A program made the position numbers and the translations under genes. From contig JAKBMK010000025.1 in assembly GCA_021831595.1 (NCBI GenBank), positions 1 through 61,113 of the forward strand: a stretch of DNA of 61,113 nucleotides, written 5' to 3'. A model generated the notes under the pieces. That model had not been told where the DNA came from and ran no database searches. It saw nothing but the letters and a program-made list of their open reading frames with translations. Below are positions 1 to 60,000 of the stretch, in pieces (the stretch's first letter is position 1; each line of letters begins with the position of its first letter). The stretch comes from a bacterium (GTDB taxonomy: Bacteria; Patescibacteriota; Minisyncoccia; Phycocordibacterales; UBA9973).

Positions 1-1
1 T

Positions 2-973: not shown

Positions 974-1000
974 TTCTCCTAATAATTCTCCTCCGGGTTC

Positions 1001-1072
1001 CCACAGGACTTGCCTGGTGGAACACTTTTCTATATAAAATAAGGGTTATTTTCCACCCAGGCCTTGCCTGGG
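1001..1072. repeat. Two REP-like hairpins with AGG-NCTTG-CCT core (family E)
   Basis: CCACAGG-ACTTG-CCTGGTGG at 1001-1020 and CCCAGG-CCTTG-CCTGGG at 1056-1072. Confidence 0.7.
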
Positions 1073-1136
1073 GGGAGGCTGTGAAAGATTGGAGGGAGGG
1101 TGTGTGAGGAGGCATTTTTTATGTTATACTCATAGG

Positions 1137-1922: not shown

Positions 1923-1929
1923 TGAATAA

Positions 1930-1962
1930 AAATGGGCCCGAAGCAAAGCTTCGGGCCCATTT
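1930..1962. terminator. Intrinsic terminator-like hairpin
   Basis: AAATGGGCCCGAAGC-AAA-GCTTCGGGCCCATTT. Confidence 0.7.
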
Positions 1963-2040
1963 GCTTATTCTTCCATCTAGTGGTATTATATATCTATTAC
2001 ACCCCCGGGGTGTTTTTTAATAGAACTAATCAAATTATAT

Positions 2041-2229
2041 ATGAGCAAAATCACTGAATATTTCAAAGAAGTTTACGCCGAATCAAAGAATATTACTTGG
2101 CCTACACGTAGGCAAGCTCTATTTTTTACAATAGCAGTATTAGCTATTTCTATCTTAATCGCTTACTACCTAGGATTGTTGGATGTATTGTTTAGTACAG
2201 GTCTATCAAAACTATTACTTAATAGATAA
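2041..2229 (+). CDS. secE: Preprotein translocase subunit SecE
   Basis: EVYAESKNITWPTR motif plus one TM helix, directly upstream of nusG. Confidence 0.93.
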   Translation: MSKITEYFKEVYAESKNITWPTRRQALFFTIAVLAISILIAYYLGLLDVLFSTGLSKLLLNR

Positions 2230-2249
2230 CTAATTTTTATAAATAATAT

Positions 2250-2801
2250 ATGGCAAAACAAGAACTAAAAGGGGAGAGGAATTGGTACGCTATTCATACT
2301 TATGCAGGTTATGAAAATGCTGTCATGAGAAATCTCCGTCAGCGTATTGATTCACTAGGGGTCAATGATAAGATTTTTAATGTAATAGTCCCTACAGAAA
2401 AGAAAATCAAAATAAAAGGAGGCAAGAGAGTAGAGAGTGAAGAAAAAGTTTATCCAGGATATGTCTTAGTAGATATGATAGTGGATGACAACTCTTGGTA
2501 CGTAGTTCGTAACACTCCTCGTGTCACAGGATTCGTCGGTGCTGGAGTAAATCCAGTTCCACTCGACAAGAAAGAAGTAGACGACCTCTTTGGAAAGATG
2601 GAGAAGGGCAACAAGACTAACAAACATCAGATGGATATAGAAATTGGAGAAATAGTTCGTATTGCTGATGGTCCATTCAAAGACTTGGAAGGCAAGGTGA
2701 ACGATGTAGATAGTGAGAGAGGTAAGGTCAAGGTTCTCGTTTCAATGTTCGGTCGTGAGACTCCAGTCGAATTAGATTTCTTGCAAATTAAGAAGATATA
2801 A
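2250..2801 (+). CDS. nusG: Transcription antitermination factor NusG
   Basis: WYAIHTYAGYE, YPGYVLV, VRNTPRVTGFVG and the KOW region DGPF...MFGRETPVELDF. Confidence 0.98.
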   Translation: MAKQELKGERNWYAIHTYAGYENAVMRNLRQRIDSLGVNDKIFNVIVPTEKKIKIKGGKRVESEEKVYPGYVLVDMIVDDNSWYVVRNTPRVTGFVGAGVNPVPLDKKEVDDLFGKMEKGNKTNKHQMDIEIGEIVRIADGPFKDLEGKVNDVDSERGKVKVLVSMFGRETPVELDFLQIKKI

Positions 2802-2864
2802 GTATAATCAGTTTATCGTGTTCGGCCAAAGGCCGTGCTTCTCACGACTAACTAAAACAAATTT

Positions 2865-3293
2865 ATGGCAGCTAAAAAAATTACAAAAAAAGTTAAATTA
2901 CAAATACCAGCCGCAAAGGCAACTCCAGCTCCTCCACTAGGTCCAGCACTTGGTCAGGCCGGAGTGAACATCGCAGAATTCTGTCAGAAGTTCAATGCTA
3001 TGACTCAGAAAGATGCAGGGGATATAGTAGGTGTAGTCATCACAGTTTACGAAGATAGAACTTACGATATAAAGGTGAAAACACCTCCAGTATCAGGTCT
3101 TATATTTAAAGCAGCAGGAGTAGAGGGTGGTTCAGGTAAGCCAAACTTGAGTAAAGTAGGTAGTATTACAAAGGCTCAAGTTCGCGCAATTGCCGAGAAG
3201 AAGATGCCAGACCTCAATGCCAAGGATATCGAAGGGGCAATGAAGATAGTAGAAGGAAGTGCTCGTTCAGCTGGTATTAACGTAATAGGATAA
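2865..3293 (+). CDS. rplK: 50S ribosomal protein L11
   Basis: [23 protein letters not shown] and KMPDLNA. Confidence 0.98.
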
Positions 3294-3308
3294 TATTGAT
3301 TCTAGAAG

Positions 3309-3340
3309 GAAAGGCCCCGCGGATTACCGCGGGGCCTTTC
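3309..3340 (+). terminator. Terminator hairpin after rplK
   Basis: GAAAGGCCCCGCGG-ATTA-CCGCGGGGCCTTTC. A related hairpin lies at 35405-35426. Confidence 0.75.
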
Positions 3341-3517
3341 TAATTTGCCCCCAAAATCCTTGATTGACAATAAGCTTATTTTATGATATAATACCCCAAA
3401 ATATATATCAAAATCCGCTTTCTAGGAAAGATGATTTTGGGGGCATCCTTATATGCCTCAAGCCCAAATAAGGAAAGTTTTTTTGACAAAGTTAAATTTA
3501 AATTAAAGTTTGTTTAC

Positions 3518-4933
3518 ATGAATGAAGCAAAATTAAGTCGTGAAGAACAAGTGGAGCTGGGCAAAAAAATTGCCGCACTTGTTGAAAAGGAAGTCGGTTC
3601 AGTATTTGCCGCAGATTCTAATCAAGGAGCTGGCGTAATCGCCATCTTGAAAATCGTTGCTCACAAAGAAGACGTTACGAACAAGATTAAAAAGTTCCTG
3701 AGAGTTGATCTTGGATTAGCCCTTCAAAATGGAAAAGAGAACCACAAAAACCACGGAAGTGGGATGAAGTGTACCGCCCTTGTGAACCTGGCCGAGATTC
3801 GGCTGGATGCTGTGAAAAGGATCGAAAATCTACACAAGTTAACTTGTGTGGAGAAAGTGAAACCGGTTGTGGTGAAGAATGTCAAATCTGAAAACAAAGA
3901 GGTTGCTCCACCTGCACCTGTGATTACCGACTCAGCACCAAAAACCGAAACTGCAATAGAGAAGCGCAAGTATTCACAAAGGATGCAGTCGGGCCAGATG
4001 ACTTTGTCTCTGTACATCTCCTCTCTTCTTTCATTTGGAAAGATGTTGGATAATGGGGGAGAGGAGCCTAAAGACTTCAGTATCAATGACTATTTCAAGT
4101 ACGGCAAAAAGACTGATGATAATTTCGTCACCTTGAGTTGTATTGATGAGAAAATTGCTACAAGTATCGAGCAGCTGGTTTGCTGGCTTATCGGAGCCGA
4201 AGGTGTTTTGAGAGATGAGATGGATGTAACGGTGGATTTGTCCAGAATGAAAAATTTTGAGAACAAAAAACATTACATCCAATTCACTTTACCTCCTAAA
4301 GAAGGAGTAACTGCAGCCAATCTGAAGAAGATGTTGCTGCGGGTTAACTCTGGTGCGAAGCCTAAAAAGGTGATAGCTCACAAAACTATCCCAAACGTAT
4401 TCGTTGTGTCATATGTAAAAAAGACTACAGCAAATACTGTTAAGAATATCATCGTCGGTATGGGGTGGAGTGTCATTGAATCTCCGGAGAACGAAGGATT
4501 CATTTTCATAAATGTCGGACAGAATGTTCCTGCTGTTGAAAAAGAAGCCCAGGTTACTCCTCTGAACGATGTTCAAGCCCACAACGAATCGAATTCTTCC
4601 GAAGAGCTTCCTCCGCCACCGGCAATTGTTTTTCTTCCTGTTGAAGGCGAAAATACTCAGAGTAAACATCTGAACAATTCCGTCGGCACCGTTCCTGATC
4701 AGAAGCCTCATGCTTCTTCTTATGTTTTCCCTGGACTCCAGGTGAACTTTTTCAAAAAGTTGCAAACGAAAGAAGAGGCTTATGCAGAGCTCGAGAAAAT
4801 ATACAATGACCAGGCACTGTTCTCTAAGTTAACAGAAGAGAATCAAAAGCAAATCGTTGATATTCTCGAAGAAGGGTATGCCCAAGCACACCCGAACGAA
4901 TACGTTGAGATGCTTCTCAAAATTTTAAAATAA
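3518..4933 (+). CDS. Hypothetical protein (no family recognised)
   Basis: Long open frame with an upstream TTGACA...TGATAT promoter-like site and a downstream hairpin. The start is uncertain (3431 or 3518). Confidence 0.7.
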   Translation: MNEAKLSREEQVELGKKIAALVEKEVGSVFAADSNQGAGVIAILKIVAHKEDVTNKIKKFLRVDLGLALQNGKENHKNHGSGMKCTALVNLAEIRLDAVKRIENLHKLTCVEKVKPVVVKNVKSENKEVAPPAPVITDSAPKTETAIEKRKYSQRMQSGQMTLSLYISSLLSFGKMLDNGGEEPKDFSINDYFKYGKKTDDNFVTLSCIDEKIATSIEQLVCWLIGAEGVLRDEMDVTVDLSRMKNFENKKHYIQFTLPPKEGVTAANLKKMLLRVNSGAKPKKVIAHKTIPNVFVVSYVKKTTANTVKNIIVGMGWSVIESPENEGFIFINVGQNVPAVEKEAQVTPLNDVQAHNESNSSEELPPPPAIVFLPVEGENTQSKHLNNSVGTVPDQKPHASSYVFPGLQVNFFKKLQTKEEAYAELEKIYNDQALFSKLTEENQKQIVDILEEGYAQAHPNEYVEMLLKILK

Positions 4934-4996
4934 TTTAACTTTATAACCAAAGAAAAGAGACTGCAGGACCTAAAGGACCCTGCAGCTTTTTCGTTT

Positions 4997-5017
4997 TCCA
5001 CAGGACTTGCCTGTGGA
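4997..5017. repeat. REP-like hairpin family E
   Basis: TCCACAGG-ACTTG-CCTGTGGA, a perfect stem. Confidence 0.75.
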
Positions 5018-5048
5018 GTTCCTGTGGGGTTTGGGAGAATTACAGACA

Positions 5049-5080
5049 TAAAATGCGTCGCCGTAAGGCGACGCATTTTA
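5049..5080. terminator. Bidirectional terminator hairpin
   Basis: TAAAATGCGTCGCC-GTAA-GGCGACGCATTTTA between convergent genes. Confidence 0.75.
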
Positions 5081-5091
5081 TATTTACTTGT

Positions 5092-5670
5092 TTATTTACT
5101 GACTCTTTCTACGTATTCGCCGTTTTCGGTGTTTATGACAACTTTGTCGCCCTCTTCTACGAAGAAGGGAACACTTATCTTGATACCGTTTTCGAGAACA
5201 GCAACCTTGCCTCCACCATTGGCAGTATTACCACGGATTGATGGGGGAGCTTCTTTCACAGTGAATTCCATCTTGATAGGAAGCAAAACTTTTATGATTT
5301 TTTCATCATCATCGTCATCCCAGATCATAGCTGTGACCTTCTCGTTGGCCTTCATGTACATAGCCTTATCACCGATAACTTTCTCGTCTATCTTGAAGCG
5401 GTTACTTGCATCATCTAGATCGCAGAACCAGTATTCACCCTTGTTGGAATATAGGAATTTGATATCTCTTTTTATAATATCTGCTTCGTCAGCTTTATCA
5501 GCTGCATGGAAAGTTGCATTCCAAGTACGGCCAGAGAGCAAACTCTTGAGCTTCACTTGGTTTTGAGGCTTTCTCATTTGAGTACGAGCGACGTGATTAT
5601 CGAGCACTTCACAAGGCTCATCTTCATATATAATTATTTTTCCTGTGCGTATTTCACTGTATTCAAGCAT
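5092..5670 (-). CDS. efp: Elongation factor P
   Basis: C-terminal PPSIRGNTANGGGKVAVLENGIKISVPFFVEEGDKVVINTENGEYVER. Confidence 0.95.
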   Translation of the reverse strand: MLEYSEIRTGKIIIYEDEPCEVLDNHVARTQMRKPQNQVKLKSLLSGRTWNATFHAADKADEADIIKRDIKFLYSNKGEYWFCDLDDASNRFKIDEKVIGDKAMYMKANEKVTAMIWDDDDDEKIIKVLLPIKMEFTVKEAPPSIRGNTANGGGKVAVLENGIKISVPFFVEEGDKVVINTENGEYVERVSK

Positions 5671-5748
5671 ATAATTTTAGTTTAACTAATAACAAAGTGA
5701 GTATAACAGAATTGAGTCAAAAACGGAAGGATATTATCCTATAGTCTC

Positions 5749-6819
5749 TTATTCCCCAGCGCTTGCGACCTGTATTTCTCCGAAACGATTGCGAACTTCT
5801 TTTAGTATTTCGTCAGCGAGCTTCTTGTTGTCTCTGAGATATGTGCGAGCGGCATCGTACCCACGGCCGAGCTTTATCTCTTCGACTGGACCTTTCTCTT
5901 TCTGTTTGGCTGTGCCTGTATAGGAGAAGATTGCTCCGCTAGTTTTCGTGATGATACCGAGCTTCTCGCCTAGAGCCATTATTTCTCCTTCACGAGAAAT
6001 TCCTTCACCATAGAGTATATCGAATTCTGTCTGTTTGAATGGGGCAGCGACCTTGTTCTTCACTACCTTCACGCGAGTACGACTTCCGACGACTTCTTCG
6101 CCTTTCTTTATCTGGGCAATTCTTCTTATATCAAGTCTGATAGTTGTATAGAATTTGAGAGCCTTTCCTCCTGGTGTTGTCTCTGGATTGCCGAACATGA
6201 CTCCGATTTGCATTCTGATCTGGTTAATGAATATCACAACTGTCTTTGAATTGTGAACTATTGCAGTGAGCTTGCGGAGAGCTTGCGACATGAGGCGAGC
6301 TTGCTTACCGACATGTGATTGACCCATGTCTCCCTCGATTTCATCCTTTGGGGTGAGGGCAGCGACAGAGTCGACAACGACGACATCTATCTTGCCAGAA
6401 CGAATGAGACTTTCGGTGATCTCAAGTGCTTGTTCTCCATTGTCCGGCTGTGAGATTAGCAATTCTTTGGTATTGACTCCGAGTTTACCAGCATAGTCTG
6501 GATCCATCGCATGCTCTGCGTCGATATAGGCGCAGACTCCACCTTTCTTTTGTGATTCAGCGACGATGTGTAGGGCAAGTGTCGTCTTTCCTGAAGACTC
6601 TGGTCCGAATATTTCTATCATACGGCCACGGGGAACACCACCGACACCGAGTGCCATATCGAGCCCGATTGATCCAGTAGGGACGACGTCGATATCTACC
6701 TTTGGAGCATCTCCGAGCTTCATGATCGCACCTTCACCGAATTTGGTCTGGATAGATTTGATTGTATCTTCTATCGCTCCACCTGTTTCCTTTGGAGCTT
6801 TTTTTGCTTTCTTTTGCAT
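5749..6819 (-). CDS. recA: Recombinase RecA
   Basis: [16 protein letters not shown] and [28 protein letters not shown]. Confidence 0.99.
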
Positions 6820-6896: not shown

Positions 6897-7295
6897 TTAA
6901 TAATTGATAATCTCACTACTTTTAAATGCGACTGATGGAGCACCTTCTTGATACATCATCTGGAACTTCTTCTCTCTATTATTTCCAAATTTATCACTTG
7001 CATCGATTGTCACGACAGAGAATCCAGGAATGAGAGCGATCGTTTCTTTGAATGTGCCATCTTTGTCTATGAATATTTCTCTGCCATTGAGACTTATGTA
7101 TGTAGCATTTGGGGCCTTACCAGTAACTACTGCCACAGGGGAGTCGCCGTTCTTTTCTATCTTTGCATTTATCTGGACTCCGTTCATGAGGAAAGACATC
7201 TTCATGTAGCTGAAAATTCCGATGACAATAAATAAAAGAGTACAAGACGTTAATCCTATCCACCACTTTATATTTTTGTTCTTTATCTCTGTCAT
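6897..7295 (-). CDS. Membrane-anchored protein with Ig-like beta-sandwich domain
   Basis: One TM helix, then [36 protein letters not shown]...ASDKFGN. Confidence 0.75.
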
Positions 7296-7299
7296 TTGA

Positions 7300-7387
7300 A
7301 TTAGTGATTAGTGATTAGTGATTAGTGATTAGTGATTAGTGATTAGTGATTAGTGATTAGTGATTAGTGATTAGTGATTAGTGATTA
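7300..7387. repeat. Perfect heptamer tandem repeat (ATTAGTG), 12 full copies plus a partial
   Basis: Read directly from the sequence. Confidence 0.97.
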
Positions 7388-7448
7388 TTCTTAATTATAT
7401 CATATTATACTTGCATTTTACTAGAAACTAGTCACTAGCTACTAGCAC

Positions 7449-10054: not shown

Positions 10055-10861
10055 ATGAATAACCAAAAAGACAACCAAAAGACAGGTTTGAATTCATACG
10101 GACAGTCAAATGTCCTAGACGTAAAAACGTTTGGTAATAAGCATGTTTATGAGTTTGCAAACAAAAAGACAGAGAAGCTCGTAACCGCTCTCTACATGGT
10201 TACAGATTGTATGGATACCGACGATGCACTGAAGGGGAAGTTACGCCAACTAGGAGTAGAATTGCTATCGGACATGTACAAACTTTCAACCCTTTCTCCG
10301 ATGGATAAACACATGCATTTGGGTGCCTCAATGTCGCGAGTAGATGAGATACTTTCGTTCGTAGAAATAGCCTACACAATCGGATTCATCTCAGAGATGA
10401 ATACGATGATATTGAAGAAAGAATTTATGATCCTGATAGGGGAGCTCGAGAGTCATCAGAAGAAGGACAAACACTTCACATTTACACTCGACGAAGAGAT
10501 GTTCTCTCTACCAGTTTTGCCAGAAGAAAATATCTCGAATAATGGAAATAATTTGGTAAAGGACAAAAGGACAAACTTCAACAATATGTCCTATACAAAT
10601 CCTGCATTGAGACATTCCATAAACCAAACACCAACAACCAAAAACCATATTCATTCTGTCTCTGATAAGAAAGAAAGAACTGACAAAATTCTTGCCTTGA
10701 TAAAGGACAAAGAAGTTTCCATAAAGGACATCTCAATTGCTTTCACGGACTGCTCAGAAAAGACAATCCAACGCGAACTGAACTCTCTCGTCGCAAAAGG
10801 ACAAATAAAGAAAACTGGATCCAAACGTTGGTCCCGCTACAAGTTAGTGGCTAGTAATTAG
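10055..10861 (+). CDS. Four-helix-bundle-like N-terminal domain plus C-terminal DeoR-type wHTH
   Basis: KTEKLVTALYMVTD...LKGKLR helical N-terminus and VSIKDIS...CSEKTIQRELNSLVAKGQIKKTGSKRWSRY. Confidence 0.75.
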   Translation: MNNQKDNQKTGLNSYGQSNVLDVKTFGNKHVYEFANKKTEKLVTALYMVTDCMDTDDALKGKLRQLGVELLSDMYKLSTLSPMDKHMHLGASMSRVDEILSFVEIAYTIGFISEMNTMILKKEFMILIGELESHQKKDKHFTFTLDEEMFSLPVLPEENISNNGNNLVKDKRTNFNNMSYTNPALRHSINQTPTTKNHIHSVSDKKERTDKILALIKDKEVSIKDISIAFTDCSEKTIQRELNSLVAKGQIKKTGSKRWSRYKLVASN

Positions 10862-11036
10862 TGATTAGTGACTAGTATTAAGCCCCCGAAAGCTTCGCTT
10901 TCGGGGGTGTGTTTTATTGTATTTTTTTCTAAAACCTAGTCACTCACTGCTAATCACTGCCCATTAATCACTAGCTACTAGCCCCTAATCTTGAGCCCCA
11001 TACTAGTCACTATTCACTAGCTACTAGAAGCTAATC
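10844..11036. repeat. Degenerate heptamer (YTAGTGA / reverse complement) arrays flanking a hairpin
   Basis: TTAGTGG CTAGTAA TTAGTGA TTAGTGA CTAGTAT at 10844-10878, with the reverse-orientation array at 10936-11036. Confidence 0.75.
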
Positions 11037-11155
11037 TTTTGGCCCACTTATCCACACCCTTATAGCATAAGGGCTTGCATATAAATGCCCCCCATTATAT
11101 AATCTTATTGTATATTAGTGTATTGGCATTTTTATGCATTTATGCTAGTATATAG

Positions 11156-24987: not shown

Positions 24988-25674
24988 ATGTTGAGAAAAG
25001 ATCCATTTATTACTGGTGAGTACTATCATATATATAACAGAGGAATAGACAAAAGAAATATATTTAAACTAGAAAGAGATTATGAGAGATTCATGATGCT
25101 TTTGTATGTTTCTAATTCTACTAATGAAAATTCTTTACGATTAGATGATCTTTTAAATAAACAGCATAAAAGTTTTAAAGAAGTTTTGATTTTAGATAAA
25201 GGTAAGCCACTAGTTTCTATAGGTGCTTGGTGTCTTATGACCAACCATTTTCATTTATTAGTTAGGCAAGAGGTAGACGGAGGGATAACTAAATTTATGA
25301 GAAAAGTGGGGGTAGGGTATTCAATGTTTTTTAATATTAAATATCATAGGCAGGGAGCCTTGTTTGGGGGGCTCTTCAAATCTAAATTAATTGGTAAGAA
25401 TGATAATTATTTAAAAATGCTTTTGGCATATATTCATTTAAATTCACTTGAGATAAATTTCCCAGATTTAGAAAATAAAAAAGGGGAGTATAAAGAGGAT
25501 GAAATGAAAGAATTTTTGGATTCATATCGGTATTCTAGTTATAGGGATTATATGGGAATTAATAGAACAGAGAAGAGTATTTTAAACAGAGAATCTTTCC
25601 CGGAATATTTTCATACAGATCAATCCTTCATTGAATTTGTGGAGAATTTTTATCTTTATAAACAACAGCACTAA
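24988..25674 (+). CDS. REP-associated tyrosine transposase (RAYT-like Y1/HUH) #1
   Basis: YHIYNRG, WCLMTNHFHLL (HUH), YIHLN (catalytic Tyr) and YSSY. REPs flank it on both sides. Confidence 0.9.
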   Translation: MLRKDPFITGEYYHIYNRGIDKRNIFKLERDYERFMMLLYVSNSTNENSLRLDDLLNKQHKSFKEVLILDKGKPLVSIGAWCLMTNHFHLLVRQEVDGGITKFMRKVGVGYSMFFNIKYHRQGALFGGLFKSKLIGKNDNYLKMLLAYIHLNSLEINFPDLENKKGEYKEDEMKEFLDSYRYSSYRDYMGINRTEKSILNRESFPEYFHTDQSFIEFVENFYLYKQQH

Positions 25675-26906: not shown

Positions 26907-27000
26907 TCTAGTGCGTTGTTGTTCTACTCATTCTTAATATTCTTTGGCAAACATATCAGCATTCTAGCATAAATAAAGGGCATACGGCAGGGTAAAGCCA

Positions 27001-27050
27001 CAAAGGCAAGACCTTTGCAATTTGCTGTCCGTGCAAAGGTCTTGCCTTTG
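27001..27050. repeat. REP doublet family B (right inverted copy)
   Basis: Exact 50-bp reverse complement of 25891-25940. Confidence 0.92.
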
Positions 27051-27082
27051 TGGGTTATTCTATTTGTATCAAAAGCTTGCCT

Positions 27083-27129
27083 TAATCGTATCATAATGAT
27101 ACGATTAGAGCATATAAATGATACGATTA
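27083..27129. promoter_or_regulatory. Palindromic operator upstream of the wHTH-Fic gene
   Basis: TAATCGTATCAT-A-ATGATACGATTA (27083-27107) plus a third half-site at 27118-27129. Confidence 0.65.
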
Positions 27130-27143
27130 AATATATGAGGGAT

Positions 27144-28187
27144 ATGAGTAAAAGACAAATTAATATATTAGAAAAGTTTCCAGAAGAAGGGAAGATTTCA
27201 TCTTCCGATATTTTAAAAATTTTAGGAGAGAAAGTGTCCTTAATTACGATCAAAAGAGATTTAGAGAGTTTGGTTGTACTAAAGTATTTAGAGAGAAAAG
27301 GAAAGGGTAGATCTACTGTATATGAAAAGACTACCTTAGGAATGTTGCTATCCCCAGTAGATGCTTCCAAGTATAACGCAGTAGACCCCGATGTTCGGAA
27401 TGGAAGAGATAGTTTTAATTTTTCTCTGTTTGAAAATTTTCCTAAAGATGTCTTCATGAGTGATGAAAAAGAATCTCTAGATAATGCGACAAAAAAATAT
27501 CAAAAAAATATTAAAAATATAAGTCAGACAGTACAGTTTAAAGAATTAGAGAGGTTTGTCATAGAACTGTCTTGGAAGTCTTCAAAAATTGAAGGGAACA
27601 CATACACCTTGCTAGATACAGAGAAGCTTATCCGTGAAGGCATTCCCGGAGAAGGACGTACCAAAGATGAAACGACGATGATACTTAATCATAAAAAAGC
27701 TTTTTCTTTTATTATGGATAATCTGGGTGACTTGCATAAAAATGGTGTCAACCTAAAATTCATAGAAAAAGTTCACGAATTACTGACTTCTGGACTAGGG
27801 GTTTCAAGGGGTATCAGGAATGGTTTAGTGGGTGTTATCGGTACTAAATACAAACCACTTGATAATAAGTATCAGATAAATGAAGCGCTAGAGACTCTTT
27901 ATAAGAGAGTGAATCAAATGCAGAATGTGTACAGTAAGGCTTTAACTCTACTTGTTGGAATTTCATATATCCAACCCTTTGAAGATGGGAACAAAAGGAC
28001 TGCTCGTTTGCTTTGCAATGCTATCCTTTTGTCTTTAAAGTGTGCTCCATTGTCGTATCGCAGTGTAGATGAGAATAATTATAGGGAATCCATTCTTGTT
28101 TTTTATGAGAAAAATTCTTTGGTGCCAATGAAAAAAATATTTATAGATCAATATATTTTTTCAACGGAGAACTACTTAGTTAAGTAG
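27144..28187 (+). CDS. wHTH plus Fic domain protein
   Basis: TIKRDLESL...KGKGRSTVY, SWKSSKIEGN and the Fic-like motif QPFEDGNKRTAR. The start is at 27135 or 27144. Confidence 0.88.
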   Translation: MSKRQINILEKFPEEGKISSSDILKILGEKVSLITIKRDLESLVVLKYLERKGKGRSTVYEKTTLGMLLSPVDASKYNAVDPDVRNGRDSFNFSLFENFPKDVFMSDEKESLDNATKKYQKNIKNISQTVQFKELERFVIELSWKSSKIEGNTYTLLDTEKLIREGIPGEGRTKDETTMILNHKKAFSFIMDNLGDLHKNGVNLKFIEKVHELLTSGLGVSRGIRNGLVGVIGTKYKPLDNKYQINEALETLYKRVNQMQNVYSKALTLLVGISYIQPFEDGNKRTARLLCNAILLSLKCAPLSYRSVDENNYRESILVFYEKNSLVPMKKIFIDQYIFSTENYLVK

Positions 28188-28254
28188 GAAATATAATTTG
28201 GCTAATAATACAACAGGCGGAGGCGTAAGCCTCCGCCTGTTGTATATGTATTTT

Positions 28255-28461
28255 CTAATGCGTAAAGATTATTATTATCGTCCTTAGTATTATCCCAAAG
28301 TCGATGAAGATATTTCTATTTTTTATATAATACAAATCATACTCAAATTTTTCTTTTGAGCTCTCGATCGTGTTTGCATAGCGGTACTTGATCTGGGCCC
28401 AGCCGGTGAATCCTGGGCGGATGATATGGCGGAGGTTGTAGTGGGGGATGGTCTCGGACAT
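28255..28461 (-). pseudogene. Duplicated 3' end of the sugar transferase gene
   Basis: The last 64 aa match those of 29421-30716 at all but one residue. Confidence 0.9.
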
Positions 28462-28519
28462 ATGGGTATTCTAGCATAAATAAGGGGGATACGGCAGGGC
28501 AGAGCAGGGTAGCACTCTG

Positions 28520-28712
28520 CAAAGGTCTTGCCTTTGTCGATGCGCAAGGACGGTCCTTGCGATTAATGAAGCAGGGCAAAGCTTTGCTTTGCCCTGCCGG
28601 TCTCTGTATTAACTAATGTGGCATTTTTGTTAATACTATGTTTCTAGTGTAAACCAAAACGCCATGTTGGTTTACACTTTGTCGATGCGCAAGGACCGTC
28701 CTTGCGCATCGA
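28520..28712. repeat. Cluster of REP families B and C plus other palindromes
   Basis: B at 28520-28536, C at 28543-28561 and 28682-28712, and other hairpins at 28571-28597 and 28646-28678. Confidence 0.88.
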
Positions 28713-28814
28713 TATGAGCGTATATATCAGCCTTGTTGGTAAAATTATACAATGGTTTTATGTTTTGTAAATTTTTTGTTTGTCTTTTTGTTTTTTATTT
28801 GAGATAATATAAAT

Positions 28815-29309
28815 ATGGATATGGATGTGAAAAAAGTAAATATTTATATAGATGGGAACAATCTTTATCGTTCAGCAAAAGAGCTCGGTTATGAAATAGA
28901 TTATAAAAAGTTTAGAGTGTGGTTATCTCAAAAATATAATACAAAAAATATATTTCTTTTTATTGGATATTTAGAAAATAGGAAAGATTTTTATAATCAT
29001 TTGAAAAATTGTGGTTTTAATTTGATATTTAAGGAAGCTATTCTTCATGAAGGAAATATTAAAGGTAATTGTGACGCTGAATTAGTATTAAAATCAGTTG
29101 ATGATTATCATTTGAAAAACTTTGATAAATTTATATTGATTTCAAATGATGGTGATTTTGGATGTTTAATAGAATTTTTAATAAATAAAAATTGTTTTGA
29201 TATTATACTATCACCTGATATAAGTAAATGTTCTATATTGTTAAGAAATAAAACAAATAAGATTTTATATTTAAACGAAATTTATAAGAAATTTTCTAAA
29301 AGCAAGTAA
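28815..29309 (+). CDS. NYN domain (LabA/DUF88, PIN-like) nuclease
   Basis: YIDGNNL, KGNCDAELV and LISNDGDF acidic motifs. Confidence 0.9.
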   Translation: MDMDVKKVNIYIDGNNLYRSAKELGYEIDYKKFRVWLSQKYNTKNIFLFIGYLENRKDFYNHLKNCGFNLIFKEAILHEGNIKGNCDAELVLKSVDDYHLKNFDKFILISNDGDFGCLIEFLINKNCFDIILSPDISKCSILLRNKTNKILYLNEIYKKFSKSK

Positions 29310-29321
29310 ATTACTTATCCC

Positions 29322-29391
29322 AAAAGAAAAAGCTCCCGGCATGGGCGCACCCATACAAGGATCTCTTTCATAATGATATAGGTATTATATA
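29322..29391 (-). ncRNA. Candidate small RNA convergent on the NYN gene
   Basis: Minus strand: TATAAT, then GAAAGAGATCC..ATGGG-TGCG-CCCAT..GGAGCTTTTTCTTTT. Confidence 0.55.
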
Positions 29392-29420
29392 CCAACGTGA
29401 CACCAGTGTCAAGACTATTT

Positions 29421-30716
29421 CTAATGCGTAAAGATTATTATTATCGTTCGTAATATTATTCCGAAATCGATGAAGATATTTCTGTTCTTTATATAATATA
29501 AATCGTATTCAAACTTTTCTTTTGAATCTTCGATTGTATTTGCATAGCGGTATTTTATTTGAGCCCAGCCGGTGAATCCTGGGCGGATGATGTGGCGGAG
29601 ATTGTAGTGGGGGATCTTGCCTTCGAGAGGAGTGACGAATTCTGGGCGCTCTGGACGGGGACCGACGAGCGAAAGATCGCCACGGAGTATATTTATCATT
29701 TGCGGAATTTCGTCGATGTGGAGCTTGCGGATGACTCTGCCGACCCGAGTGACACGAGGGTCGGATGCTCCTGTGGCCCAGACGGCGCCATCCTTCTCGG
29801 CGTTTATCGTCATAGAGCGAAGCTTGTAAAGCCTGAATATATTGCCATTGAGTCCAACTCTATTTTGAGTATAGAAGATTGGACCTTTGTCGTTTAGATA
29901 TATGAACACTCCACTGACAAGCAATATAGGTGAGCAGAGTACTAGTATGATGATAGCGAACAACTTATTCACAATAAACGTCATTATATTGTAGGCGACG
30001 TCTTTCTTTATATTTATATTCTCTACAACGAAAGACATATCGATATACCCAACAGGAATTTTGAATAGATATTTCTCATAAGCTTTGGCTGTGTCGATGA
30101 TGGAGCATCCTTGCTTGTATAGTTCCAAAATCTTTTCGTCTGGAGAGTCTATTTTCTTGTCTAGGATTATCACCAAATTTTTTGTAATTTTCTCTACTGA
30201 CTTCATCTCATTCATACTGTCTAGATGACTTACGATCGAGAGCCCGATCTGAGGATTTGCTTTTATCGTATTCTCTAATTCTTTCAGATAAGTAGAAGTC
30301 CCGACGAGAATTACCGGCTGTGTTATGCCCTTGGCGAAAAGGGTATAGATAGTTCTACGAAAGAAGAAAGAAAAGAAACCGAACAGAACGACCTGGATCA
30401 AGAGGTTCATCTTTGGATAAATACCGAATATAGGGGCTAGGTAGAATAGGATCAAGCCGACGACGAAGGAGGAGGCCAGGGCTAGGGCCCATCTCTTCAT
30501 ATAGGGGATAGTAGGCTTTATCGTCACCAAGTCATATAGTCCAAATATATAGAAAATAAGCACCCAGATGAGATATAGGAGGAGGAATGGCACAGTATGA
30601 CTGTCGATAGCAGAAAGGTACTGGTCGGGAGAGAATCTTATGAAAATAAGCAATATAAAAGAGATGAGAAAAGATAGAAAATCTCCGAATATGATAAGCC
30701 AAGTTCTATTCGTCAT
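29421..30716 (-). CDS. Polyprenyl-phosphate sugar-1-phosphate transferase (WcaJ/WbaP-like)
   Basis: FRLYKLRSM, DPRVTRVGRVIRKLHIDEIPQ, SLVGPRPE and PGFTGWAQ. Confidence 0.95.
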   Translation of the reverse strand: MTNRTWLIIFGDFLSFLISFILLIFIRFSPDQYLSAIDSHTVPFLLLYLIWVLIFYIFGLYDLVTIKPTIPYMKRWALALASSFVVGLILFYLAPIFGIYPKMNLLIQVVLFGFFSFFFRRTIYTLFAKGITQPVILVGTSTYLKELENTIKANPQIGLSIVSHLDSMNEMKSVEKITKNLVIILDKKIDSPDEKILELYKQGCSIIDTAKAYEKYLFKIPVGYIDMSFVVENINIKKDVAYNIMTFIVNKLFAIIILVLCSPILLVSGVFIYLNDKGPIFYTQNRVGLNGNIFRLYKLRSMTINAEKDGAVWATGASDPRVTRVGRVIRKLHIDEIPQMINILRGDLSLVGPRPERPEFVTPLEGKIPHYNLRHIIRPGFTGWAQIKYRYANTIEDSKEKFEYDLYYIKNRNIFIDFGIILRTIIIIFTH

Positions 30717-30822
30717 ATGAAGACATTCTAGCACAAAAGGCGGGAATATAGCACCGTTTTGACATTTTGGGATAGAAGGAATATTCTCTATATGAAATCA
30801 AACATTCAAATAAACTCAAGAT

Positions 30823-31170
30823 ATGGAAAGAGATGAAAAAGAACAGAGCGACGAGATTTACCGTGGGTTCATGGAAACAGTTGAAGCCATGGTAAAAGCT
30901 TCGAAAGGCAAGCTCACTCTAGTCATAGAAGAGGACGAACACTTCCTACAGCTTCTTTCTGAAAGAGAGATGCATAGCGTAGAACATTTCGTTCGTCTTT
31001 CCCTAAAAGACAAGATGGGTCGGGCTCTGCCGGAATTCTATCTGATGGTCAATTCATATCAGTACGATTGTCCCAAGGAAGTGGCAGCAGGTAAGGCTCG
31101 TCTAAAAGAGCTCGGCAATGTCATCCTCGATGACAAGTATCAACTAAGCTGGAACCAGCTTTTCCGTTAA
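30823..31170 (+). CDS. Hypothetical protein
   Basis: 115-aa ORF with an upstream TTGACA promoter-like site and a downstream hairpin. Confidence 0.6.
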   Translation: MERDEKEQSDEIYRGFMETVEAMVKASKGKLTLVIEEDEHFLQLLSEREMHSVEHFVRLSLKDKMGRALPEFYLMVNSYQYDCPKEVAAGKARLKELGNVILDDKYQLSWNQLFR

Positions 31171-31231
31171 CAAACATACCCCAGAGGCTAAACCTTTGGG
31201 GTAAATTTGTATGATTTATACCCCGCACTTT

Positions 31232-36480: not shown

Positions 36481-39945
<3,465 letters not shown>

Positions 39946-57596: not shown

Positions 57597-58283
57597 ATGG
57601 CACACCAAGGCAATGCGTGGGATAGGGAATACAGGAATCCACTACTAGTGACTAAGAATGATGGTCCGCAAAAAGACACTTTGCGATTTTTGAAGTATCT
57701 GAAAAAAGTAGAGAAGTATAGAGTGGAAGAAAAGAATATTCTGGATCTTGGTTGTGGCACAGGCAGGAATTCAAATTATTTAGCAGATTTATACAATAAA
57801 GTTATTGGCATAGAAATATCAAAGACAGCCTTAGATATTGCGAAAACTCGCGCACACAACATGGGCGTGTCTGTAGACTATAGACTAGGGGATATAGGGG
57901 AGAAGTATGATATACCAGATAATTCTATCGATGTAGTACTAGATATCACATCTTCGAATTCTCTTGATGAAAAAGGAAGAGAAGTTTACTTGGAAGAGGT
58001 ACAGAGAGTAATGAAAAAAGGTGGGTACTTTTTTGTCCGGGCGCTTTGTAAAGACGGCAATCAGAATGTGAAGAATCTCCTCAAGATGAGCCCCGGCAAG
58101 GAATATGATACTTATATAATGAAAGATATAGGACTTACAGAGCGCGTATTCTCTAGGACTGATTTCTTGGCTATGTATGGCAAATATTTTAAAATTTTGA
58201 ATTTAGAAAAGAAAACAAGTTATACTACTTTCAATAATCGTATCTACAAACGCGATTACTGGCTCGCTTATATGCAGAAGTAG
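57597..58283 (+). CDS. Class I SAM-dependent methyltransferase
   Basis: ILDLGCGTGRN and IGIEIS. Confidence 0.9.
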   Translation: MAHQGNAWDREYRNPLLVTKNDGPQKDTLRFLKYLKKVEKYRVEEKNILDLGCGTGRNSNYLADLYNKVIGIEISKTALDIAKTRAHNMGVSVDYRLGDIGEKYDIPDNSIDVVLDITSSNSLDEKGREVYLEEVQRVMKKGGYFFVRALCKDGNQNVKNLLKMSPGKEYDTYIMKDIGLTERVFSRTDFLAMYGKYFKILNLEKKTSYTTFNNRIYKRDYWLAYMQK

Positions 58284-58290
58284 TATGAGT

Positions 58291-58323
58291 AAAACAGAGT
58301 AAGGCAAGACCTTACTCTGTTTT
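58291..58323. repeat. REP family D
   Basis: AAAACAGAGTAAGG-CAAGA-CCTTACTCTGTTTT. Confidence 0.92.
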
Positions 58324-59183
58324 TGTTTTGTAGTTTTGTATGAAAATACCTACAAATATAAACAATAGTCCAATAATAGAAGATATTAAAATGGTTTCGT
58401 GGAGCAGGAAATATATATAAACAAGAGAGAAGAATGGGGTTAAGAAAGCAATGTTTGCTATTTTTGCTGTATCTCCATATTTGAGAGCAAGAAACCATAA
58501 AAGAAAAGCTCCTCCACTCGTAAATATTCCAGTCCAAATAAGGCCTAGGATTTGCATCCCCTCAATTTTAGGAATAAAACTAAATGAAGTTACTGCTATC
58601 AATGTAAAAATAAAAGTAAATAAATAGTAAAAAAACATACTGGTCGTCTTGTCGTAATTTTGTCTTTTTCCTAGAACAGAGAATAATCCATATGACATAG
58701 CCGCTATAATTGCGAATATTACACCAATAGGTTTTTCAAAATGTAGTTGTTGCAGATTGCCTTGGGTTGCAATAATTATGACTCCTATAAAAGAAAAAAT
58801 AACAGCCAGTATTTTTTTATAAGTAAATTTTTCTCCCAATATTGGAATAGCAAATAAAACTATCATAATGGGCCATAAATAGTTAATAACGAAAGCTTCT
58901 TGAGCCTTTAGATAAGAGATGGCTATATATAAAAATAGATAATAAATAAAAACACCCACGAATCCCATATAAATAAAACGCCAATAATCTTTTAATCCAT
59001 AGGATTTTATTATCGAGATTTTTTCTGTATTAAAACAATTATGAATAAACTTAGTGATGCGAAAAATGAAGCGAAAAGTAAAATTTGTAGACTATTTAAA
59101 TTTTTTAATAACAGTTTTACTACTGCGGCAGTAGATCCCCATAAAAGGGTAGCTGACAGTGCATATATGTATGCTTTGTTCAT
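58312..59183 (-). pseudogene. EamA/DMT transporter split by a 1-nt frameshift
   Basis: N-part MNKAYIYALSATLLWGST (59183) and C-part MGFVG...INYLWP. They join in frame if one base is added to the T6 run at 59019-59024. Confidence 0.85.
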
Positions 59184-59217
59184 GATGTAGATTATAACAT
59201 AGAATGTTTTCAATATA

Positions 59218-59244
59218 ACAGAGTAAGGTCTTGCCTTACTCTGT
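59218..59244. repeat. REP family D (opposite orientation)
   Basis: ACAGAGTAAGG-TCTTG-CCTTACTCTGT. Confidence 0.92.
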
Positions 59245-59265
59245 CGGAGGAATATAATGTAATAT

Positions 59266-59931
59266 ATGTCTTTAAGAAAAGTTAATTTTGTAAAAGGAGA
59301 ATATTATCACATTTATAATCGCGGAAATAGTAAACAGAAAATATTTCATGATAAATATGATTATTTTCATTTTGTGAAATTAATGTTTATTTGCAACAAT
59401 ATAGATAATGTAAGAATTTTTAATGATGATCGGTATGGCATTAATGTATTTGATAGAGAGGTAGAGAATATTGTATCTATTGGAGCATATTGTTTAATGC
59501 CGAATCACTTTCATATATTAATTACAGAAAAAATGGAAAGTGGCATAAGTAAGTTTATGCAAAAATTATCAACTGCGTATTCTATGTATTACAATAAAAA
59601 ACATAATCACACGGGTGGATTATTTGAAGGGAAGTTTAAGTCTGTGCATATTGATGGAGATATTCAGATGAAATATTTGTTTTCGTATATTCATTTGAAT
59701 CCAATAAAACTAATATATAAAGATTGGAAAGAATTTGGTATCAAAGATAAAAAACAAGCATTAGATTATCTAGGGGAATATGATTATTCTAGTTATAAAG
59801 ATTTTATATTAAATGAAAGAATACAAAGTAAAATACTAAATATTAAAGATTTTCCCAATTATTTTCATATTAAAGAAAAGTTTCAGAAAGAGATAATTGA
59901 ATGGTTGTCTTTTAAAGACAAAACAGAGTAA
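59266..59931 (+). CDS. REP-associated tyrosine transposase (RAYT-like Y1/HUH) #2
   Basis: YHIYNRG, YCLMPNHFHIL, YIHLNP and YSSY. Inverted family D REPs flank it. Confidence 0.92.
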   Translation: MSLRKVNFVKGEYYHIYNRGNSKQKIFHDKYDYFHFVKLMFICNNIDNVRIFNDDRYGINVFDREVENIVSIGAYCLMPNHFHILITEKMESGISKFMQKLSTAYSMYYNKKHNHTGGLFEGKFKSVHIDGDIQMKYLFSYIHLNPIKLIYKDWKEFGIKDKKQALDYLGEYDYSSYKDFILNERIQSKILNIKDFPNYFHIKEKFQKEIIEWLSFKDKTE

Positions 59932-59951
59932 GGCAAGACCTTACTCTGTTT
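59921..59951. repeat. REP family D
   Basis: AAACAGAGTAAGG-CAAGA-CCTTACTCTGTTT, which contains the RAYT stop codon. Confidence 0.92.
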
Positions 59952-59956
59952 ATAAC

Positions 59957-60000
59957 CGTATCTACAAACGCGATTACTGGCTCGCTTATATGCAGAAGTA
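59957..60000 (+). repeat. 44-bp exact direct repeat of the methyltransferase 3' end (58239-58282)
   Basis: CGTATCTACAAACGCGATTACTGGCTCGCTTATATGCAGAAGTA occurs at both sites. Confidence 0.95.

What the first reader, a model, noticed from the sequence alone, without database searches (positions are those of the whole stretch)
28255..29615. Second duplicated 3' end: synonymous-diverged 195-bp copy of the sugar transferase tail
Seen: 28255-28449 parallels 29421-29615, with many third-position changes but only one amino-acid change in 64 (IED versus IES). The NYN gene and REP cluster lie between the copies. The layout (intact gene, cargo, REP, displaced tail) matches 58-60 kb. Inference: an incoming allele from another strain replaced the gene end and brought cargo, using homology on one side and a REP on the other.
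Basis: partly seen in the sequence, partly recalled or inferred. Interest (0 to 1): 0.7.

Follow-up and report, generated by a model that had tools for sequence, protein, structure and literature searches.

The report
Displaced gene tail left by cassette insertion
A leftover copy of the last 64 codons of a sugar-transferase gene marks where a small mobile gene block, carrying its own replacement gene end, was recombined into an ultra-small bacterium; related species show the same kind of scar at the same gene.

Summary
Bases 28252-28449 and 29418-29615 are a 198-nt direct repeat at 88% identity. It is the 3' end of a Bac_transf sugar transferase (PF02397). Of 24 differences, 20 lie at third codon positions, with 1 amino-acid change in 64. 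pS is 0.57, pN 0.013, dN/dS about 0.01.

The two tails therefore diverged as working alleles before they were brought together. This is not a local duplication followed by decay.

The NYN gene between them is a portable module. Three other species carry it at 83-85% nt identity in unrelated contexts. The displaced tail abuts a REP-containing repeat unit.

The pattern recurs. One other species of the genus has an intact gene, a Fic cargo gene and a displaced tail. Another has four tail pieces among toxin-antitoxin and Fic genes. REP-like hairpins lie 0-6 nt from 5 of 7 junctions.

k-mer contigs from two studies reproduce the arrangement. Another sample holds a form lacking the whole block.

The closest known parallel is C-terminal displacement at Rhs and T6SS loci. 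Which tail was the incoming one is inferred, not shown.

The parts
29421..30734 (-). Intact polyprenyl-phosphate sugar transferase gene (Bac_transf). The likely start is the Met at 30716, giving 431 aa.
   Evidence: ORF. PF02397 at 1.1e-59. Homologues are 430-431 aa.
29418..29615 (-). Repeat copy that forms the working 3' end (last 64 codons, the stop, and 3 nt beyond) of the intact gene
28252..28449 (-). Displaced copy of the same 64 codons plus stop. It is still an open frame (ORF 28255..28461, with four new codons and its own ATG).
28450..28505 (-). Junction (about 8 nt) followed by a promoter-like repeat 'X_B' (28458-28505). It is 85% identical to 26951-26998, which sits upstream of the GT2 gene. 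On the minus strand its TGCTAGAAT box points into the displaced tail.
   Evidence: (D10) and the alignment. The promoter reading is by eye only.
28506..28740 (.). REP cluster. It holds one hairpin of the type-1 family (28520-28536), an inverted pair of type-2 hairpins (about 28537-28561 and 28682-28712, REPIN-like) and two further hairpins between them.
28815..29309 (+). NYN-domain gene (PIN-like RNase fold), the cargo, convergent with the transferase gene
   Evidence: PF01936 at 1.7e-15. Portable.
29310..29390 (.). Conserved non-coding 3' block of the NYN module, nearly invariant in four species. On the minus strand it reads as a TATAAT box, a hairpin and a T-run.
28208..28245 (.). Perfect hairpin between the displaced tail and the Fic gene, terminator-like in both directions
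27135..28187 (+). Fic/DOC-family gene, convergent with the displaced tail. On the favoured reading this is the gene's former downstream neighbour.
   Evidence: PF02661. A 71% aa homologue lies convergent with the transferase gene in G016.
26951..27051 (.). X_A repeat plus REP_A (double type-1 hairpin). In a variant form seen in run X7, 27051 is joined to 29419 with 5 other bases between.
24988..25674 (+). RAYT-like Y1 (HUH) transposase gene flanked by REP hairpins
   Evidence: PF01797 at 7e-6. Flanking inverted repeats I2 and I12.
57597..58283 (+). Methyltransferase gene of the second case. Its last 49 nt (58234-58282) are the first repeat copy.
58291..59951 (.). Inserted block of the second case: REP, an EamA gene split into two ORFs (58312-58968 and 59010-59213, minus strand), REP, a RAYT-like gene (59266-59931, plus strand), REP
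59952..60000 (+). Displaced methyltransferase tail (98% identical; one synonymous change and TAG vs TAA). It begins directly after a REP hairpin and lies 20 nt upstream of the next gene, as in relatives.

Best explanation
The 195-bp piece is the former 3' end of the sugar-transferase gene. It was pushed downstream when a block of about 1.17 kb was added inside the gene's last 64 codons. The block consists of a replacement tail from a diverged allele, the portable NYN module, and a REP-containing unit. The gene stayed whole because the incoming DNA supplied its own tail.

The most economical mechanism is additive ('ends-in', Campbell-type) homologous recombination within the conserved tail. The incoming DNA's far end had been cut or closed at the end of a REP unit.

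The conserved end of this gene borders a variable region. In this genus it acts as a repeated docking place for small toxin-like and addiction-type genes (NYN, Fic, HicA, AbiEii). Each addition leaves the previous tail behind.

Shown: the repeat; its purifying-selection signature; the portability of the cargo; the REP units at junctions; recurrence in other species; and presence/absence variation in nature.

Inferred: which tail came in, the circular or ends-in intermediate, and any catalytic role of the RAYT-like transposases.
For: (a) The alleles had diverged before they met. Differences fall 3/1/20 by codon position, with pS 0.574 and pN 0.013. The fragment has no stop or frameshift in 64 codons. 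With 2 non-synonymous changes in 153.7 sites, neutral drift since displacement is at most about 4% (my Poisson bound), against dS of about 1.

(b) The cargo is mobile. NYN homologues at 91-95% aa and 83-85% nt occur in G069, G104 and G095 with unrelated flanks. Homology always stops near 28833 and 29390.

(c) REP at the junctions. The window's junction is at most 8 nt from the end of a REP+X unit that recurs at 26951-27051. Of 7 displaced-tail junctions examined (window x2, G095 x1, G043 x4), 5 have a hairpin with a GCAAGRCC-type core, or a close variant of it, 0-6 nt upstream. Such hairpins are rare: 46 with a stem of 4 or more in 807 kb, about 30 strict REP copies.

(d) Recurrence.
- G095 has an intact gene, a convergent Fic gene, and a 93-codon displaced tail. 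Differences fall 6/2/34 by codon position, with pS 0.60 and pN 0.053.
- G043 has four tail pieces (81-91% nt) downstream of the intact gene. They are interleaved with HicA, RhuM-Fic, Fic, AbiEii and Panacea-antitoxin genes.

(e) Polarity by analogy. In the second window case the displaced tail sits 20 nt from the next gene. In 12 of the 29 relatives' loci examined, the aligned gap between the methyltransferase and that next gene is 20-39 nt.

(f) The gene's stop is where conservation ends. In the 13 relatives' loci printed, unrelated downstream genes start at or within a few bases of the stop. Neither of the window's two downstream contexts matched the downstream sequence of any of the 89 relatives' loci where it could be extracted (best E 0.01). 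Body and tail also give different nearest relatives.

(g) It is not an assembly artefact. Single k-mer contigs from run X1 (27022-31200) and from run X2 of another study (27001-30131) match with 0 differences.

(h) Natural variation. Run X7 has a contig joining 27051 to 29419, skipping 2367 nt, with 56 nt on the shorter side and depth 10.7.
Against: - No donor haplotype was found. The best non-conspecific homologues are 73-77% aa identical. No full-length protein among 688 hits carries the fragment's exact tail; the best is the genome's own gene at 98%, the next 94%.
- The tree of tails cannot separate the two window tails. It gives (intact,(fragment,L053)), but an AU test does not reject intact+fragment as a clade (p = 0.32). 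In G095 the two tails are sisters (100/96). This is also what a long-lived local duplicate under selection would give.
- The window's own junction is 70 nt from the nearest REP hairpin. Only the composite unit abuts it.
- No microhomology is visible at the junctions.
- Run X7 also lacks Fic and the fragment, so the form predicted to precede the insertion (fragment-type tail on a whole gene followed by Fic) has not been seen. That joint was called at 85% likeness and could come from a related organism.
- None of 90 other loci of this gene showed a second tail, so the process is occasional.
Confidence: 0.6

Rival explanations
1. Reverse polarity. The resident arrangement was transferase-NYN-REP unit. 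The Fic gene came in from another genome, dragging with it the last 64 codons of that donor's transferase gene. The fragment is then donor DNA, not the displaced resident end.
For: The data on the two tails are symmetrical (15 vs 9 sites match the majority of relatives). Fic next to this gene is seen in only 1 of 90 other loci, so Fic is itself accessory. The X7 variant lacks Fic, the fragment and NYN together.
Against: In the second window case the polarity is clear, and the REP end lies on the incoming side. In G095 and G043 the REP hairpin likewise sits between cargo and displaced tail. NYN is demonstrably portable.
Confidence: 0.15
2. One-anchor (homology-facilitated) illegitimate recombination of a linear fragment, exactly. 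No circular or ends-in intermediate is involved.
For: The process is known in transformable bacteria, and has been proposed for arrays of displaced gene ends (passages read in PMC5361080; abstract of PMC3240628 in the listing). Here there is homology on one side only, and a heterologous end at a REP unit.
Against: The usual outcome is replacement or deletion, not a direct duplication whose inner edge coincides with the start of homology. No microhomology is seen at the joint. This is a variant of the favoured reading rather than a true rival. It shares the favoured polarity and cargo and differs only in the intermediate.
Confidence: 0.15
3. An old local duplication in which the 68-codon ORF is itself a selected mini-protein gene. 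Both copies then diverged in place under purifying selection.
For: The frame is open, with an ATG directly after a promoter-like box. The G095 fragment is also an open 93-codon ORF. The within-genome tails are nearest relatives.
Against: The fragment lacks the part of the domain upstream of profile position 117. The arrangement is not shared by relatives: 0 of 90 loci. The three species differ in breakpoint and cargo. The G043 pieces are only 52-103 nt long and are truncated differently. The second case is 98% identical, hence young. A variant without the block coexists.
Confidence: 0.06
4. Assembly chimera of two co-occurring strains in a metagenome-assembled genome.
For: The genome is a 33-contig assembly. 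Strain variants of this gene coexist in run X7, where listed contigs over parts of 29598-30303 have 0-71 differences.
Against: Uninterrupted k-mer contigs from runs of two studies carry the whole arrangement with 0 differences, although both runs may be source samples. The same architecture occurs in two other species' assemblies.
Confidence: 0.03

Closest known systems
C-terminal displacement at rhs loci, and 'sequential displacement' of T6SS effector-immunity modules (Jackson et al. 2009, PMC2935791, abstract read; Kirchberger et al. 2017, PMC5361080, passages read)
   Same: A constant gene acquires a new 3' end plus downstream genes. The old 3' end is shifted downstream and kept as an orphan piece. 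Repeated rounds build arrays (G043 here). The proposed mechanisms are homologous recombination with circular intermediates (rhs) or homology-facilitated illegitimate recombination (T6SS).
   Different: There the displaced tips are the variable toxin domains, with their immunity genes. Here the displaced and new ends encode almost the same peptide (1 change in 64) of a housekeeping-type glycan-initiating enzyme. The novelty lies in the unrelated genes that ride behind it. REP hairpins sit at the junctions. The organism is a Patescibacteria/CPR bacterium.
Homology-facilitated illegitimate recombination in naturally transformable bacteria (de Vries and Wackernagel 2002; Prudhomme et al. 2002; seen only as references cited in PMC5361080)
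   Same: Foreign DNA is added next to a single homologous anchor.
   Different: No microhomology is seen at the joints. The product is a duplication of the anchor rather than a deletion. Nothing can be tested experimentally here.
REP / REPIN-RAYT systems (Bertels and Rainey 2011, PMC3116915, and later papers; abstracts seen in the listing)
   Same: Low-copy Y1 (IS200-like) transposase genes are flanked by short palindromes. The same palindromes are scattered singly, and as inverted pairs, in intergenic DNA.
   Different: Here there are only about 30-46 hairpins per genome, falling into several stem families that share a loop core. There are four RAYT-like genes rather than one. The hairpins mark the ends of acquired gene blocks. 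To my knowledge that is not a described property of REPINs. A search for RAYT together with Patescibacteria/CPR terms found no relevant paper.
Integrative elements that duplicate the 3' end of their target gene (tRNA, tmRNA or protein-gene att sites). This comparison is recalled, not searched.
   Same: The element carries a copy of the target's 3' end, so the gene stays intact. The old end remains at the far border.
   Different: There is no integrase or other recombinase between the copies. The copies are 88% identical throughout rather than sharing an identical core. Breakpoints differ between cases.

Membership tests
Bacterial sugar transferase (Pfam PF02397, Bac_transf) | Match to the family profile above the curated cut-off | tested here: met
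   The intact gene scores 201.4 bits over profile positions 4-178. The fragment scores 56.5 bits over profile positions 117-178 only. The cut-off is 27 bits.
Local duplication followed by neutral decay | Differences spread evenly over codon positions, with dN/dS near 1 and frame damage | tested here: not met
   Differences fall 3/1/20 by codon position, dN/dS is 0.012 and the frame is open.
3'-end (C-terminal) displacement arrays (rhs / CDI / T6SS type) | An intact gene followed, on the same strand, by orphan copies of its own 3' part, separated by acquired genes | tested here: met
   The window has 1 orphan, G095 has 1 and G043 has 4.
3'-end (C-terminal) displacement arrays (rhs / CDI / T6SS type) | The displaced tips are variable toxin domains paired with immunity genes | tested here: not met
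   The tails are 98% identical in protein and form the conserved end of PF02397. The cargo consists of separate genes: NYN, Fic, HicA, AbiEii.
3'-end (C-terminal) displacement arrays (rhs / CDI / T6SS type) | The histories of the core and of the 3' end are decoupled | tested here: inconclusive
   The body's nearest non-conspecific relatives are P0003 and P0002 (74% aa). The tail groups with L053/P0008 (body 70%) with 94/96 support in the earlier build (not re-printed). The tail alignment has only 192 columns.
Homology-facilitated illegitimate recombination | A homologous anchor on one side only | tested here: met
   Homology covers 198 nt and ends sharply on both sides. Nothing beyond it is similar.
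Homology-facilitated illegitimate recombination | Short microhomology at the illegitimate joint | tested here: not met
   No bases are shared across the boundary in the 7 junctions printed.
REP/RAYT (REPIN) system | A Y1 HUH transposase gene flanked by its palindromes, with the palindromes also dispersed and forming inverted pairs | tested here: met
   PF01797 hits at 24988-25674 and 59266-59931. Flanking hairpins are (I2, I12, D7). An inverted pair lies at 28537-28561 / 28682-28712.
REP/RAYT (REPIN) system | The transposase cleaves and joins DNA at the palindromes | not testable with these tools
   Only positional association is available: 5 of 7 junctions lie within 6 nt of a hairpin.
Site-specific integrative element with att duplication | A recombinase gene inside the inserted segment and an identical core in both att copies | tested here: not met
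   Between 28450 and 29417 the only gene is NYN. The copies are 88% identical with differences throughout.

The most novel reading that the evidence does not exclude
The REP hairpins and their RAYT-like HUH transposases in this Patescibacteria genus form an integron-like capture system. A block ending in a REP hairpin is cut out, or closed into a single-stranded or double-stranded circle, together with the end of the conserved gene it sat behind. It is then docked into the same gene end in another cell. Conserved gene tails would thus serve as landing pads, and would accumulate toxin-antitoxin and defence cassettes, with old tails left as spacers.
Probability: 0.15. Interest if true: 0.8.

Novelty: new variant of a known kind. 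Interest (0 to 1): 0.5.

Why it matters
Ultra-small CPR/Patescibacteria genomes are thought to exchange DNA mainly by uptake and recombination. How they add new genes without classical mobile elements is poorly documented.

This locus shows a concrete route. Small addiction-type or defence-type genes are added behind a conserved envelope-glycan gene. The previous gene ends are kept as dated scars. Palindromic REP units sit at the joints.

The scars give a direct readout of the order of acquisitions. If the REP association holds up, they point to a new role for domesticated HUH transposases.

For annotation, such fragments should be called gene remnants, not small genes.

Tried and rejected
- **Donor search.** I looked for a donor or conspecific haplotypes in several places: 41 relatives; 80 metagenome loci (best 73% aa); 5.8 billion proteins; and the genus by DNA (best 82% to the fragment apart from the genome's own intact tail). 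No donor was found.
- **GC3 as a polarity test.** Fragment 0.56, intact tail 0.44, upstream body 0.45-0.75, genome mean 0.284. With 64 codons this is not decisive.
- **Polarising the 24 differences with outgroups.** The split is 15 vs 9 against the majority of relatives, and 9 vs 12 against L053. There is no clear direction.
- **Rfam scan of 24.5-31.5 kb.** It returned only sub-threshold microRNA-model hits on the hairpins.
- **Further tail remnants in the window.** Sensitive searches found none.
- **Order-wide scan.** 261 of 301 genomes have the tail (the tally includes the unpublished G342, on which no claim rests). Five genomes other than G000 had two matches. The four second matches I could see (G363, G366) lie in full-length frames. 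Those of G265, G298 and G310 were not listed and not examined.
- **Weak joints in run X7.** 28449->30001, 26823->29418 and 27020->28517 have 20-26 nt on the shorter side, too little to interpret. In X6 the contigs break at 28227-28230 and at 29159-29273. Contig depth cannot be read as a share of cells.
- **REP-core resemblance.** The GGCAAG just upstream of the boundary in the intact gene resembles the REP loop core. The other junctions show nothing similar, so I treat it as chance.
- **Technical errors.** The first tree call failed on a row name. The second had the G095 fragment one codon out of register; this was corrected. One literature search failed on a badly formed term and was not repeated.
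- **Supplements.** None were read for any paper.
Full report
**1. Setting**

The window is the first 61 kb of contig C32 of an 807-kb, 33-contig genome. Source names of several homologues agree.

On the minus strand, 29421..30734 encodes a polyprenyl-phosphate sugar transferase (PF02397, 1.1e-59). Reading downstream in gene sense, the order is:
- a convergent NYN-domain gene (28815..29309);
- a hairpin-rich cluster (28506-28740);
- a 48-nt promoter-like repeat (28458-28505);
- the 64-codon copy of the gene's own end (28255-28449);
- a perfect hairpin (28208-28245);
- a convergent Fic gene (27135..28187);
- a double REP hairpin (26996-27051);
- the first copy of the promoter-like repeat (26951-26998);
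- a GT2 glycosyltransferase gene.

**2. The observation**

The repeat is 198 nt at 88% identity. Its edges are sharp: nothing aligns upstream of 28449/29615 or more than 3-5 nt past the stop.

Twenty-one of the 64 codons differ. Twenty are synonymous and one is Ser/Asp. The 24 base differences fall 3/1/20 on codon positions (p = 6.6e-7 for the third-position excess). pS is 0.574, pN 0.013, and dN/dS is about 0.012.

With only two non-synonymous changes in about 154 sites and no frame damage, the copy can have drifted neutrally for at most a few percent divergence. Synonymous divergence is near saturation. So nearly all the divergence predates the moment the two tails came to lie in one genome.

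**3. Is it real DNA?**

Single k-mer contigs from public runs of two different studies carry the whole arrangement without a single difference: X1 over 27022-31200 and X2 over 27001-30131. Both runs may be sources of the assembly, so this excludes a binning or scaffolding chimera rather than giving independent biology.

Another sample (X7) holds diverged alleles of the transferase gene. Listed contigs over parts of 29598-30303 have 0-71 differences. X7 also holds a contig that joins 27051 to 29419 with five other bases between. In that form the REP hairpin follows the gene's stop directly, and Fic, the fragment, the REP cluster and NYN are all missing (depth 10.7, 56 nt on the shorter side). 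This was called at 85% likeness, so it could belong to a close relative.

The region just past the stop codon is therefore variable in nature.

**4. The cargo**

NYN-family genes occur in 92 of 93 genomes of the genus. Close copies (91-95% aa, 83-85% nt) are found in only three: G069, G104 and G095. Each has different neighbours.

Nucleotide homology always runs from about the start codon to 29390. It includes a block of about 80 nt of non-coding sequence that is nearly invariant. By contrast the transferase is at most 70-77% aa identical to any homologue outside its own 99% cluster. The NYN module is thus a small portable unit.

**5. The junction and REPs**

Two RAYT-like Y1 transposase genes lie in the window (PF01797), and two more lie elsewhere in the genome. 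Each of the window's two genes is flanked by short palindromes.

The palindromes fall into several stem families that share a loop core (GCAAGRCC or its complement). They are scarce: about 30 strict copies, or 46 core-bearing hairpins with a stem of 4 or more, in 807 kb.

The displaced tail begins at most 8 nt after the end of a composite unit made of a type-1 hairpin plus the promoter-like repeat. That unit occurs a second time at 26951-27051.

In the second case in the window, the 49-nt methyltransferase tail at 59952-60000 starts directly after a REP hairpin.

Genome-wide, these are the only two places where a long ORF's exact 3' end is duplicated nearby.

**6. Polarity**

For the second case, the relatives settle the question. 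In 12 of the 29 relatives' loci examined, the methyltransferase gene is followed within 20-39 aligned nt by the same next gene. The displaced tail sits 20 nt from that gene.

So the displaced tail is the resident one. The block tail'-REP-EamA (split)-REP-RAYT-REP is the insertion, with its REP end on the incoming side. Relatives that have a RAYT-like gene at this site show no tail duplication (4 loci examined).

For the transferase case the same polarity is inferred by analogy. It also fits one relative (G016) in which a 71% aa identical Fic gene is convergent with the transferase gene, although a small extra gene lies between them.

GC3 and outgroup polarisation were uninformative.

**7. Recurrence**

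A DNA search of the genus with the fragment found matches in 39 of 93 genomes. Besides the window's genome, four had more than one match. In two of these (G095, G043) the extra matches are long pieces on the same contig as the gene. In the other two (G020, G021), and for G016's extra hit, they are short weak hits on other contigs.

*G095.* The layout is intact gene, convergent Fic gene, a 5-bp-stem hairpin with the same loop core, then, 3 nt later, an open 93-codon tail. It is 84% nt identical to that genome's own tail. Differences fall 6/2/34 by codon position, with pS 0.60 and pN 0.053.

*G043.* Four tail pieces (81-91% nt) lie on the gene's strand over 9 kb. They are interleaved with HicA-type, RhuM-Fic, Fic, AbiEii and Panacea-antitoxin genes and a RAYT fragment. 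Three of the four are preceded within 0-6 nt by a core-bearing hairpin. Two start at the same codon behind near-identical hairpins whose upstream flanks are unrelated.

Taken together, 5 of 7 junctions have a hairpin within 6 nt.

Outside these genomes the pattern was not seen. None of 90 further loci had a second tail at E <= 1e-3. No clear case appeared in 300 genomes of the order (three second matches were not examined).

**8. Why this gene end?**

In the relatives' loci printed, the next gene starts at or overlapping the transferase stop and differs from genome to genome. Neither of the window's two downstream contexts is found in any of them.

The body and the tail of the gene have different nearest relatives. 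The conserved tail is thus the last stretch of homology before a variable region, which makes it a natural crossover zone.

**9. Phylogeny of the tails**

With 57 sequences and 192 columns, the window's two tails and one metagenome sequence (L053) form a clade, with 94/96 support in the earlier build (one search does not re-print this node). The fragment pairs with L053 (96/89).

An AU test does not reject the two window tails as sisters (p = 0.32). The G095 pair are sisters (100/96). At protein level the fragment's best match among 688 hits is the genome's own gene (98%, next 94%).

Donors were therefore close relatives. That is expected if homologous pairing is required. It also keeps alive, at low probability, the reading that the fragments are long-lived selected mini-genes.

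**10. Mechanism**

The structure has a direct duplication of the homologous segment. Its inner edge coincides with the start of homology, and its outer edge coincides with the end of conservation at the stop codon. This is what a single crossover with a circular or ends-in molecule carrying tail-cargo-REP produces.

That is the model proposed for rhs C-terminal displacement (PMC2935791, abstract). One-anchor illegitimate recombination, proposed for T6SS immunity arrays (PMC5361080, passages), is the close alternative.

The REP unit at the heterologous end suggests that breaks, or HUH-transposase nicks, at REP hairpins define the ends of the transferred blocks. That step is inference from position only.

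**11. Novelty**

Displacement of gene 3' ends with orphan arrays is known for polymorphic toxin loci. Four things differ here:
- the target is a conserved envelope-glycan gene, and once a methyltransferase gene;
- old and new ends are near-identical in protein;
- the riders are toxin-antitoxin, Fic and NYN genes;
- the joints carry REP hairpins, and the host is a CPR bacterium.

A search for RAYT together with CPR terms returned no relevant paper. I did not search exhaustively for REP-bounded gene blocks in other phyla.

Noticed in passing
window 29310-29390 (and L043, L044, L045): The roughly 80 nt after the NYN stop are almost invariant in four species, although the ORFs differ at 15-17% of bases. 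On the minus strand the block reads as a TATAAT box, a short hairpin and a T-run. It could also encode an 18-aa peptide. In a distant homologue (G072) the hairpin stem differs on both sides. This may be a small convergent RNA or peptide gene partnered with NYN, in a toxin-antitoxin-like layout.
   Followed up: partly
L045 4140-5650; L050 (G062:C15) 1-6000; L049 4790-5750: In sister species the NYN gene sits in a one-orientation array of cassettes, most about 0.7 kb, separated by a structured repeat of about 110 nt (GGTTCGAAC...GCTCCGAACYTGGGAG...GTTCGAA). G062 has six copies in one locus, next to RelB/YafQ and other small gene pairs. No integrase was seen in the 9.4 kb read. The array looks integron-like (attC-like). 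The window's own genome lacks the repeat.
   Followed up: partly
window 58312-59213: The EamA transporter gene inside the second inserted block is split into two ORFs (218 and 67 aa), so it is probably broken. G069 has a 75% aa identical EamA match beside the RAYT-like gene at the same methyltransferase locus, but in a different order.
   Followed up: partly
window 29421-30734: The transferase gene has GC3 of roughly 0.5 averaged over the 20-codon windows. The genome mean is 0.284 (sd 0.058; 300 ORFs over 300 aa). The gene is compositionally atypical along most of its length.
   Followed up: no
window 7286-7397, 10843-11046, 39182-39267: Runs of a 7-nt unit (ATTAGTG), with related inverted copies about 32 kb apart. 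They are not related to the finding.
   Followed up: no
genome contigs C13 vs C19, C15 vs C26, C30 vs C31: Kilobase-scale stretches at 77-91% identity lie on different contigs. They are either paralogous islands or a second strain in the bin.
   Followed up: no
L021, L022, L023, L053, L055, L060, L067, L069, L073, L085: RAYT-like genes lie within about 1.7 kb of the transferase gene in 10 of 90 relatives' loci, either upstream or downstream. The association of these transposase genes with this locus is therefore widespread.
   Followed up: partly
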